Shown here: positions 76 through 297 of the stretch, one piece after another
How the letters are laid out: each line of letters starts with the position of its first letter
Numbering within the stretch: position 1 is the stretch's first letter
Source: Escherichia coli
GTDB taxonomy: Bacteria > Pseudomonadota > Gammaproteobacteria > Enterobacterales > Enterobacteriaceae
Assembly (NCBI RefSeq): GCF_003334405.1
Contig: NZ_QOWM01000069.1
DNA: 357 bases
Direction: 5' to 3' (one strand)
Made by a program: the position numbers and the translations under genes
Notes under the pieces: generated by a model
Told to the model about the DNA's origin: nothing
Databases searched by the model: none
Seen by the model: only the letters and a program-made list of their open reading frames with translations

Positions 76-183
76 TTACTTCCGGTTACGCCACCAGCTG
101 ACAATCGCTGCGGTAATAATTCCCGCCAGGATCGGTGCTGCCAGGTCGTGCCAGAAAATCATGGCAAACTGCGCGAGCGTCAT
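76..183 (-). CDS. ldrA: Type I toxin-antitoxin system toxin, Ldr family (35-aa hydrophobic membrane peptide)
   Basis: Minus-strand ORF from ATG (complement of 181-183) to TAA (complement of 76-78), 36 codons including stop. Translation is MTLAQFAMIFWHDLAAPILAGIITAAIVSWWRNRK. From memory this matches E. coli LdrA/LdrC and is close to LdrB and LdrD (shared FWHDLAAP core, one predicted transmembrane helix, basic C-terminal tail RNRK). An AAGG Shine-Dalgarno sits 7 nt upstream of the ATG. The paralog (ldrA vs ldrC vs ldrB) cannot be resolved without flanking sequence; the symbol is the family-level best guess. Confidence 0.88.
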   Translation of the reverse strand: MTLAQFAMIFWHDLAAPILAGIITAAIVSWWRNRK

Positions 184-190
184 ATAGCCG

Positions 191-194
191 CCTT
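191..194 (-). promoter_or_regulatory. Shine-Dalgarno (AAGG) for ldr
   Basis: Minus-strand AAGG (complement of 191-194) lies 7 nt upstream of the ldr ATG at complement 181-183; the in-frame upstream ATG at complement 208-210 has no comparable SD. Confidence 0.5.
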
Positions 195-196
195 GT

Positions 197-224
197 TGTA
201 ATGACAACATTTTGCGGCTATTCT
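197..224 (+). promoter_or_regulatory. Candidate sigma70 promoter for rdl
   Basis: TTGTAA (197-202), a 16-nt spacer, then TATTCT (219-224). Each hexamer matches consensus at 4 of 6 positions, and the predicted start falls near 231, where the Rdl-like sequence begins. Alternative register: ATGACA (201-206) as the -35. This is a motif-level call only. Confidence 0.3.
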
Positions 225-230
225 TGAAGT

Positions 231-297
231 GTCTGGTTTCAAGATTAGCCCCCGTTCTGTTGTCAGGTTTTACCTCTCAACGTGCGGGGGTTTTCTC
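231..297 (+). ncRNA. rdlA: Rdl cis-encoded antisense sRNA (antitoxin RNA of the Ldr module)
   Basis: About 67 nt on the plus strand, upstream of and antisense to the ldr 5' leader. It folds into a long imperfect hairpin: CCCCCG 249-254 pairs with CGGGGG 285-290, TGTTG 258-262 with CAACG 278-282, and AGGT 265-268 with ACCT 272-275 around a TTT loop, followed by TTTT at 291-294. The sequence matches my recollection of E. coli Rdl RNAs, and a promoter-like element lies just upstream. Ends are approximate, and the paralog letter is tied to the ldr assignment. Confidence 0.7.
249..294 (+). terminator. Intrinsic terminator-like extended stem-loop plus U-tract at the 3' end of rdl
   Basis: A 5-6 bp GC closing stem (CCCCCG 249-254 with CGGGGG 285-290) encloses two further nested helices and is followed directly by TTTT (291-294). 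Seen directly in the sequence. Confidence 0.6.

What the first reader, a model, noticed from the sequence alone, without database searches (positions are those of the whole stretch)
76..297. Known Ldr/Rdl type I toxin-antitoxin module, not a new system
The minus-strand 35-aa peptide has the Ldr signature (MTLAQFAMIFWHDLAAP..., one hydrophobic helix, WWRNRK basic tail). A structured, roughly 67-nt terminator-bearing RNA sits on the opposite strand in the toxin's 5' leader, as expected for Rdl. I therefore see a well-characterised toxin/antisense-RNA pair here and no evidence of an undescribed system.
Basis: partly seen in the sequence, partly recalled or inferred. Interest (0 to 1): 0.45.

Follow-up and report, generated by a model that had tools for sequence, protein, structure and literature searches.

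The report
Known Ldr/Rdl toxin-antitoxin repeat unit
The window is one copy of the E. coli "long direct repeat", which encodes a small membrane toxin (LdrA/LdrC) and the antisense RNA (Rdl) that keeps it silent; this is a described system present in every complete E. coli genome, so the finding is correct and ordinary.

Summary
The minus-strand ORF 183..76 encodes a 35-aa peptide identical to E. coli K-12 LdrA/LdrC. It matches Pfam Ldr_toxin end to end (E=1.8e-24). Plus-strand 231-296 matches Rfam rdlD end to end (91.4 bits, gathering score 50, E=2e-20). The window matches 5426 of 5426 complete E. coli genomes (median 4 copies), in the tandem LDR array between kdsA and chaA. It is 100% identical to units in several genomes, K-12 derivatives included. 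It matches no single MG1655 unit exactly: the CDS is the ldrA/ldrC type and rdl is the rdlB type. The module is wider than 76-297: the Rdl promoter, the ldr leader, 3' UTR and terminator hairpin fill the window. The ldr promoter, first ~9 nt and terminator U-tail lie outside it. Across 47 homologues from five genera the UTRs are more conserved than the CDS. The Rdl hairpin is maintained in the Rdl sense. The ldr SD and AUG are predicted to pair with the 3' UTR, as in hok. How Rdl represses translation is still unresolved in the literature. Novelty: already known. Interest is low.

The parts
1..26 (-). Stem-loop of the intrinsic terminator of the ldr mRNA (GGCCGCAGG, 8-nt loop, CCUGCGGCC). The U-tail (AUUUUUGUCUUU) lies just outside the window, before position 1.
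   Evidence: The inverted repeat is visible, and the flanking T-run is seen in the identical J53 locus. The stem is kept in 47 homologues with some compensatory changes (columns 347-355 with 366-374).
34..65 (-). ldr 3' UTR elements predicted to pair with the 5' end and with the translation initiation region. 38-34 GCGCC pairs with 346-342 GGCGC. 49-41 GAUGGCAAU pairs with 208-200. 54-50 GCCGU pairs with 191-187 (the SD region). 65-60 GGCGUC pairs with 181-176 (GACGCU, beginning with the G of the AUG).
   Evidence: MFE fold of the window (z=-7.1); RNAalifold consensus on 47 sequences; 98.3% of cells paired against 31-61% when slid; coordinates. Inference only: compensatory changes are few.
76..183 (-). 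ldr toxin gene: 35 codons plus stop, with a product identical to K-12 LdrA/LdrC (WP_000170955.1).
   Evidence: The mean 19-residue Kyte-Doolittle hydropathy reaches 1.66, and the C-terminal tail RNRK is basic.
187..194 (-). Shine-Dalgarno region of ldr (AAGGCGGC).
   Evidence: GGCGG is conserved in the 47-sequence alignment at a fixed distance from the invariant AUG.
196..224 (+). Probable Rdl promoter: -35 TTGTAA (196-201), 17-nt spacer, -10 TATTCT (219-224), start at 231.
   Evidence: Read from the sequence. Both hexamers are conserved across genera as TTGYAA and TATYCT (reverse complement columns 139-171). The consensus scan did not flag it, because it scores 8/12 and the tool requires 9. 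Inference.
231..296 (+). Rdl antisense RNA (antitoxin), identical to K-12 rdlB. It has a 16-nt single-stranded 5' tail followed by a long interrupted terminator hairpin.
   Evidence: Rfam RF01813 at 91.4 bits; fold z=-5.5; identical to L002 3859-3924, annotated rdlB. 96.6% of pairs are standard in the Rdl sense against 78% in the mRNA sense.
263..340 (-). Leader ORF in the ldr 5' UTR (MLRGLYPWWHWLLERENPRTLRGKT, with a GAGG SD at 347-344). It is a candidate for the hypothetical ldrX, and its 3' part crosses the Rdl target.
   Evidence: The start is conserved as ATG or GTG in 44 of 47 sequences, and the other 3 have TTG one codon downstream. The stop position is not conserved. Its coding status is unproven.
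279..346 (-). 5' leader stem-loop domain of the ldr mRNA. 341-330 pairs with 289-279 (the Rdl-complementary CCCCGCACGUU), enclosing hairpin 320-313/308-301. 346-342 is the 5' partner of the 5'-3' pairing.
   Evidence: The region is nearly invariant across genera.
350..357 (-). 3' half of the 5'-terminal hairpin of the ldr mRNA, cut by the window end. The ldr -10 box (TAGTAT) and the probable start lie about 9-21 nt beyond position 357.
   Evidence: Upstream alignment of homologues: the -10 box TAG(T/A/G)AT is conserved, and the hairpin CCGG..CCGG shows compensatory changes in Kluyvera (sequence).

Best explanation
The window is one unit of the chromosomal E. coli long direct repeat (LDR), a type I toxin-antitoxin module.

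Shown here:
- The minus strand encodes the 35-aa inner-membrane toxin LdrA/LdrC.
- The plus strand encodes the 66-nt antisense RNA Rdl, which is perfectly complementary to the ldr 5' leader 48-113 nt upstream of the start codon and does not cover the SD or the AUG.

From the literature:
- Overproduced LdrA causes a rapid ATP drop and growth arrest.
- Rdl prevents Ldr synthesis post-transcriptionally.
- The ldrD/rdlD duplex is cut by RNase III.

Inferred here:
- The full-length ldr mRNA is made in a closed form. Its 5' end (GGCGC) and its SD/AUG region pair with the 3' UTR, as in hok fold-back inhibition, so ribosomes must gain access from the leader. That access could come through the conserved-start leader ORF (the ldrX idea) or through a standby site.
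- Rdl blocks that route by turning the leader into a long duplex, which RNase III then cleaves.
- Because Rdl is made constitutively from its own promoter, the toxin stays silent.
For: Identity:
- Pfam Ldr_toxin over 1-35/35, E=1.8e-24.
- Peptide identical to MG1655 LdrA and LdrC.
- Rfam rdlD at 91.4 bits against a gathering score of 50.
- Matches in 5426 of 5426 complete E. coli genomes, annotated as Ldr family toxin.
- NC_000913 annotates ldrA/B/C and rdlA/B/C in the same layout with 535-bp spacing, and the window aligns at 99% mean column identity.
- The locus lies between kdsA and chaA.

Conservation as a pair:
- 35-aa Ldr ORFs occur in Citrobacter, Kluyvera, Pseudocitrobacter, Salmonella and Escherichia species.
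- An rdlD hit above the gathering score lies opposite the leader at all 20 distinct loci tested.

Rdl is the selected fold: 96.6% of pairs are standard in the Rdl sense against 78% in the mRNA sense.

Closed mRNA:
- Window fold z=-7.1.
- Consensus structure with 5'-3' and TIR-3'UTR helices.
- 98.3% of cells paired against 31-61% when slid.
- UTRs are more conserved than the CDS.

Resemblance to hok: the Rfam hok-leader model RF01794 aligns full-length to ldr leaders of several genera, below threshold.

Literature:
- Rdl inhibits protein synthesis, and the ldrX hypothesis is unconfirmed (PMC4147584, PMC8167048).
- LdrA toxicity (PMC8309996).
- RNase III products from the rdlD/ldrD overlap (PMC7373196).
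Against: Nothing argues against the identity. The mechanistic part has these weaknesses:
- The long-range helices vary almost only by G-C/G-U changes. Only 3 pairs show compensatory change, and shuffles nearly match the paired fraction (98.0% against 98.3%). Covariation therefore does not prove them.
- The leader ORF's stop is not conserved relative to the ldr start, which weakens a strict mok-like coupling.
- Rdl pairing to 289-279 should release, not mask, the leader ORF's start codon.
- The rnc effect on ldrD stability is described as slight (PMC7373196).
- Nothing here shows that this particular copy is expressed.
Confidence: 0.93

Rival explanations
1. Rdl acts mainly by triggering degradation. 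The 66-bp Rdl/ldr duplex is cleaved by RNase III and the cut mRNA decays, with translation control secondary and no role for a leader ORF, a standby site or fold-back structure.
For: An RNase III-dependent ~21-nt dsRNA peak maps to the rdlD/ldrD overlap, and both RNAs are somewhat stabilised in rnc mutants (PMC7373196). The complementarity over 231-296 is perfect by construction.
Against: The rnc effect on full-length ldrD is described as slight. Reviews classify Rdl as an inhibitor of protein synthesis. This model does not explain the near-invariance of the 5' and 3' UTRs outside the Rdl target.
Confidence: 0.25
2. The unit is a decaying, non-functional repeat copy (a genomic fossil), not an active module.
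For: The LDR is multi-copy (1-12 per genome), so single copies could be redundant. One homologue (L037) carries a premature stop.
Against: The ORF is intact and identical to LdrA/LdrC. Rdl scores 91.4 bits with an intact hairpin and U-tail. The promoter hexamers, the SD and the terminator are all intact. Identical copies recur in many genomes.
Confidence: 0.03
3. It is a hok/sok-family locus rather than ldr/rdl.
For: The Rfam RF01794 (sok/CssrC) model aligns to 333..181 on the minus strand with E=6e-5, and similarly in other genera.
Against: All of those hits are below the gathering score (24-43.5 bits against 59). The peptide matches only Ldr_toxin in Pfam, with no Hok domain. The plus-strand RNA matches rdlD, not a Sok-type RNA.
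Confidence: 0.01

Closest known systems
E. coli K-12 LDR-A/B/C units (ldrA-rdlA, ldrB-rdlB, ldrC-rdlC; Kawano et al. 2002, cited in PMC4147584)
   Same: Same locus (kdsA-chaA), same 535-bp tandem unit, and the same layout. The toxin is identical to LdrA/LdrC and Rdl is identical to rdlB.
   Different: The window is not base-for-base any one MG1655 unit. It differs from LDR-A at 229, 233-235, 237 and 270, from LDR-B at 99, 139 and 158, and from LDR-C at 257 plus a 1-nt indel at 329. It is identical to units in other genomes, including the K-12 derivatives J53 and Stbl4.
ldrD-rdlD (LDR-D, the experimentally studied copy; LdrD NMR structure 5LBJ)
   Same: Same family and architecture. The 5' leader and much of the 3' UTR are almost identical. 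Rdl matches the model built on rdlD.
   Different: The toxin sequence diverges: phmmer E=1.5e-10 against 5LBJ, and a review gives 57% identity between LdrA and LdrD (PMC8309996). The chromosomal site differs (next to bcsG). A 1-nt indel in the leader changes which upstream frames run into the ldr start. The reported primary phenotypes differ: ATP drop for LdrA and nucleoid condensation for LdrD (PMC8309996).
hok/sok (plasmid R1 and chromosomal copies)
   Same: Both have a small membrane toxin, a long structured leader, an antisense RNA that targets the leader rather than the toxin SD, a proposed leader ORF (mok or ldrX), and predicted 5'-3' fold-back with the TIR sequestered. The hok-leader Rfam model weakly recognises ldr leaders (PMC4147584).
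   Different: The toxin family is different (no Hok domain). The RNA hits are below threshold. The leader ORF does not consistently overlap the ldr start. 3'-end processing and ORF coupling have not been demonstrated for ldr. The LDR is essentially chromosomal: 22 of 72,556 plasmid records, all non-mobilizable and several of them mislabelled chromosomes.
Fst/RNAII (par of pAD1) and the Fst/Ldr toxin superfamily
   Same: Both are short single-helix toxins with a basic C-terminus. The peptide has a weak NCBIfam Fst hit (E=0.022), and reviews place Ldr and Fst in one superfamily (PMC4147584).
   Different: The score of 14.6 bits is below the curated cut-off of 26. According to PMC8309996, the Fst mRNA-antitoxin interaction begins at the terminator loop, unlike the 5'-leader antisense arrangement here.

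Membership tests
Ldr/Rdl type I toxin-antitoxin (LDR repeat) | 35-aa toxin matching the Ldr toxin profile | tested here: met
   Pfam PF13940 over 1-35/35, E=1.8e-24, 85.9 bits. The peptide is identical to MG1655 LdrA/LdrC.
Ldr/Rdl type I toxin-antitoxin (LDR repeat) | cis-encoded ~60-67-nt antisense RNA of the Rdl family | tested here: met
   Rfam RF01813 over 231-296, plus strand, 91.4 bits against a gathering score of 50, E=2e-20, full model. The sequence is identical to annotated rdlB.
Ldr/Rdl type I toxin-antitoxin (LDR repeat) | Rdl overlaps the long 5' UTR of ldr, not its RBS or start codon | tested here: met
   Rdl spans 231-296 and the ldr ATG is at 183-181, leaving a 47-nt gap. The same layout holds at all 20 distinct homologous loci tested.
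Ldr/Rdl type I toxin-antitoxin (LDR repeat) | Part of a ~0.5-kb long direct repeat on the chromosome | tested here: met
   Units are spaced 535 bp apart between kdsA and chaA in MG1655, J53 and IH5. The median is 4 places per genome.
Ldr/Rdl type I toxin-antitoxin (LDR repeat) | Single hydrophobic alpha-helix with a basic C-terminal tail | tested here: met
   Hydropathy reaches 1.66 over 19-residue windows and the tail is RNRK. The homologue LdrD has a solved structure, 5LBJ, described as alpha-helical in PMC8309996.
Ldr/Rdl type I toxin-antitoxin (LDR repeat) | The peptide is toxic when overproduced, and Rdl suppresses the toxicity | not testable with these tools
   Literature only: LdrA toxicity (Yamaguchi et al. 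2014, as summarised in PMC8309996) and LdrD/RdlD (Kawano et al. 2002, as summarised in PMC4147584).
Hok/Sok | Hok-family toxin and a Sok RNA or hok leader reaching the Rfam threshold | tested here: not met
   The Pfam scan returned only Ldr_toxin. RF01794 scored 29.3 bits against a gathering score of 59.
Fst (NCBIfam NF033608) | Score at or above the curated cut-off | tested here: not met
   14.6 bits against a cut-off of 26, E=0.022.

The most novel reading that the evidence does not exclude
The ldr and hok leaders may be related regulatory cassettes attached to unrelated toxins. On this reading, the ldr mRNA is born translationally inert through a conserved 5'-3' and TIR-3'UTR fold-back. It must be processed or refolded before the conserved-start leader ORF (or a standby site) can deliver ribosomes to ldr, and Rdl intercepts that activated form. 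This would settle the mode of action of Rdl, which reviews still list as unknown. It concerns the whole family, not this window specifically.
Probability: 0.35. Interest if true: 0.3.

Novelty: already known. Interest (0 to 1): 0.08.

Why it matters
It matters little as a discovery. The locus has been annotated in E. coli K-12 since 2002 and is present in every complete E. coli genome. The value here is a clean negative: the window can be filed as ldr/rdl with high confidence. The comparative by-products could guide experiments on the still-unresolved question of how Rdl represses Ldr. These by-products are UTRs more conserved than the toxin, an Rdl hairpin selected in the Rdl sense, predicted sequestration of the SD and AUG by the 3' UTR, a leader ORF with a conserved start but a non-conserved stop, and sub-threshold similarity to the hok leader. 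They are family-level leads, not a new system.

Tried and rejected
- **44-aa in-frame extension (ATG 210):** rejected. That ATG is confined to E. coli LDR-A/B/C-type units, while ATG 183 is invariant.
- **20-aa TTG ORF 242..180 as the coupling ORF 'ldrX':** its stop overlaps the ldr start as ATGA. It is not conserved. A 1-nt indel puts it in frame with ldr in LDR-D and many other units.
- **Plus-strand ORFs 135..227 and 229..357, and minus-strand 270..350:** treated as by-products of the opposite-strand gene or RNA. None was searched separately. The frame of 270..350 is broken in most genera by a TGA at alignment columns 34-36.
- **Promoter scan:** it found nothing in the window at its threshold. 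The Rdl promoter was assigned by eye and by conservation. The ldr promoter lies outside the window.
- **NCBIfam:** it gave only a weak Fst hit and no Ldr-specific model.
- **Covariation test of the long-range helices:** inconclusive. Pairing is high, but shuffles reach nearly the same level.
- **Papers not held or not reachable:** Kawano 2012 RNA Biol and Fozo 2008 MMBR. The primary Kawano 2002 and Gerdes & Wagner 2007 papers were not read. Their content is taken from reviews or marked as recollection.
- **Plasmid search:** it gave no evidence of mobile LDR copies.

Full report
**Observation**

The window carries a minus-strand ORF with its ATG at 183-181 and its TAA at 78-76. The ORF encodes MTLAQFAMIFWHDLAAPILAGIITAAIVSWWRNRK. 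The peptide matches Pfam PF13940 (Ldr_toxin) over all 35 positions, E=1.8e-24. It matches the solved LdrD chain 5LBJ with E=1.5e-10. It is identical to the translations of ldrA and ldrC in E. coli K-12 MG1655. NCBIfam gave only a sub-threshold Fst hit.

On the plus strand, 231-296 matches Rfam RF01813 (rdlD) over the whole model. The score is 91.4 bits against a gathering score of 50, E=2e-20. The 67-mer 231-297 folds into a long interrupted hairpin at -27.1 kcal/mol, z=-5.5. A U-rich tail follows, which the terminator scan flags.

**Where it comes from**

Megablast finds the window in 5426 of 5426 complete E. coli genomes. Copy number ranges from 1 to 12 per genome, with a median of 4, and nearly all copies are chromosomal. 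The feature under the match is annotated 'type I toxin-antitoxin system toxin Ldr family protein'.

In MG1655 the same layout is annotated as ldrA/rdlA, ldrB/rdlB and ldrC/rdlC. These are three tandem units spaced 535 bp apart between kdsA and chaA. A fourth unit, ldrD/rdlD, sits next to bcsG.

Aligned to the three tandem units, the window shows 99% mean column identity but equals none of them. Its CDS is the ldrA/ldrC type and its rdl is identical to rdlB. Exact copies exist elsewhere:
- It is the middle unit of a J53 derivative, where all three Ldr proteins are the same accession.
- It is the first of two units in strain IH5.
- It is the single unit in Stbl4.

This pattern looks like gene conversion within the array.

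Plasmid records hold the LDR only rarely, in 22 of 72,556 records. All 22 are non-mobilizable, and several are 4.8-4.9 Mb, so they are evidently mislabelled chromosomes.

**Extent of the module**

- On the minus strand, 26..1 is the stem-loop of the ldr terminator. Its U-tail lies just outside the window.
- On the plus strand, TTGTAA (196-201), a 17-nt spacer and TATTCT (219-224) precede the Rdl 5' end at 231. Both hexamers are conserved across genera, although the site scores below the scan's threshold.
- The ldr promoter is outside the window. A conserved -10 box, TAG(T/A/G)AT, lies 16-21 nt beyond position 357. It is followed by a 5'-terminal hairpin that shows compensatory changes in Kluyvera. 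Only the 3' half of that hairpin (about 350-354) is in the window.

**Comparative evidence**

A degenerate DNA pattern for FWHDLAAP retrieved 44 loci from species-representative genomes. Forty of them encode 35-aa Ldr peptides or Ldr-like ORFs, in Escherichia, Salmonella, Citrobacter, Kluyvera and Pseudocitrobacter; one copy carries a premature stop and one sits on a contig that is probably contamination. The other four are chance hits. At all 20 distinct loci tested from these genera, plus K-12 LDR-D, an rdlD hit above the gathering score lies opposite the leader. The toxin and the antisense RNA are thus conserved as a pair.

An alignment of 47 distinct mRNA-sense sequences shows several things:
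- The 5' and 3' UTRs are more conserved than the coding region.
- The ATG at 183 and its AGGCGG are invariant or nearly so. The in-frame ATG at 210 is lineage-specific, which supports a 35-aa product.
- The Rdl hairpin is maintained in the Rdl sense. 96.6% of pair cells are standard pairs there, and several conserved G-U pairs in Rdl would be A-C mismatches in the mRNA sense, where only 78% pair. This is direct sequence evidence that the plus-strand transcript is the folded, selected RNA.

**How it most likely works**

From the literature:
- Overproduced LdrA causes an ATP drop within minutes, followed by arrest of macromolecular synthesis.
- LdrD is an alpha-helical membrane peptide.
- RdlD blocks LdrD synthesis post-transcriptionally by a mechanism the reviews call unknown (PMC8309996). 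An alternative is the unconfirmed hok-like ldrX hypothesis (PMC4147584; PMC8167048).
- RNase III generates dsRNA fragments from the rdlD/ldrD overlap, and its loss slightly stabilises both RNAs (PMC7373196).

From the sequence:
- Rdl is complementary to the leader 48-113 nt upstream of the AUG, so it cannot mask the SD directly.
- The window's minus strand folds unusually well, z=-7.1.
- The RNAalifold consensus of the 47 homologues pairs four sets of elements (coordinates):
  - the 5' GGCGC (346-342) with the 3' GCGCC (38-34);
  - the SD region GCGGC (191-187) with GCCGU (54-50);
  - GACGCU (181-176), which begins with the G of the AUG, with GGCGUC (65-60);
  - 208-200 with 49-41.
- These helices are paired in 98.3% of cells, against 31-61% when the partner columns are slid. 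However, variation is almost all G-C/G-U and shuffles reach 98.0%, so covariation is not decisive.
- A leader ORF starting at ATG 340, with a GAGG SD, has a conserved start: ATG or GTG in 44 of 47 sequences, and TTG in the next codon in the remaining three. Its stop position varies, and it sometimes fuses in frame with ldr. A strict mok-type overlap is therefore not conserved.

My best account is this. The ldr mRNA is made in a closed, poorly translatable form. Ribosomes must enter from the leader, through the leader ORF or a standby site. Rdl converts that leader into a duplex that blocks entry and is cleaved by RNase III. The identity of the parts is shown here. The closed form and the route of ribosome entry are inferred.

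**Comparison with known systems, and novelty**

All sequence-testable defining features of Ldr/Rdl are met. Toxicity and rescue cannot be tested with these tools.

Hok/Sok and Fst membership tests fail. Even so, the Rfam model RF01794, whose consensus reads like the sense hok leader ending in AUG, aligns full-length to ldr leaders in the window and in five loci from other genera. The scores are 24-43.5 bits, below the gathering score of 59. That is an architectural resemblance consistent with the hok-like model.

The finding is already known. Interest is low.

Noticed in passing
window 333..181 (minus strand); also L014 2412-2567, L037 1293-1445, L016 3108-2957, L042 121-272, L005 2739-2586: Rfam RF01794 ('sok antitoxin (CssrC)'), whose consensus reads like the sense hok 5' leader ending in AUG, aligns full-length (model 1-157) to ldr 5' leaders of several genera. 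In the window alignment, the one shown, it ends at the ldr AUG. Scores are 24-43.5 bits, below the gathering score of 59. The ldr and hok leaders therefore resemble each other, although the toxins belong to different families.
   Followed up: partly
window 99, 139, 158, 229-238, 257, 270, 329: The unit is a mosaic of the MG1655 units: the CDS is as in ldrA/ldrC and rdl is as in rdlB. In the K-12 derivative J53 all three tandem Ldr proteins are the same accession. This suggests gene conversion within the array.
   Followed up: partly
L001 3001-4749 (E. coli Stbl4): In Stbl4 a single LDR unit is followed by yghO and glcC instead of further units and chaA. This points to a chromosomal rearrangement with an end in or next to the LDR array.
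   Followed up: no
whole window, across E. coli genomes: LDR copy number ranges from 1 to 12 places per complete genome, with a median of 4.
   Followed up: no
L037 about 1443-1550 (Pseudocitrobacter vendiensis): The ldr copy has an in-frame stop at codon 31 (..AAIVGW*RNRK), while the rdlD opposite its leader still scores 85 bits. This may be a toxin pseudogene with a retained antitoxin RNA.
   Followed up: no
L023 (503-bp contig labelled Bacillus sp., coverage 0.66): The contig carries an LdrD-like ORF, MPFAELGMAFWHDLAAPVIAGILASMIVNWLNKRK. This is most likely Escherichia contamination of that assembly.
   Followed up: no
plasmid records H41-H55: LDR matches occur in only 22 of 72,556 PLSDB records. 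All 22 are predicted non-mobilizable, and several are 4.8-4.9 Mb, so they are evidently chromosomes filed as plasmids.
   Followed up: partly
just beyond window position 357 (L003 3358-3378): A conserved -10 box, TAG(T/A/G)AT, and a 5'-terminal hairpin (CCGGx..xCCGG) of the ldr mRNA lie here. The hairpin shows compensatory changes in Kluyvera (CCCGC/GTCGGG, CCCAC/GTGGG). The window cuts the hairpin in half.
   Followed up: partly
window 1-75 and 184-357 versus 76-183: Across five genera the untranslated regions of the ldr mRNA are more conserved than the toxin coding sequence.
   Followed up: yes
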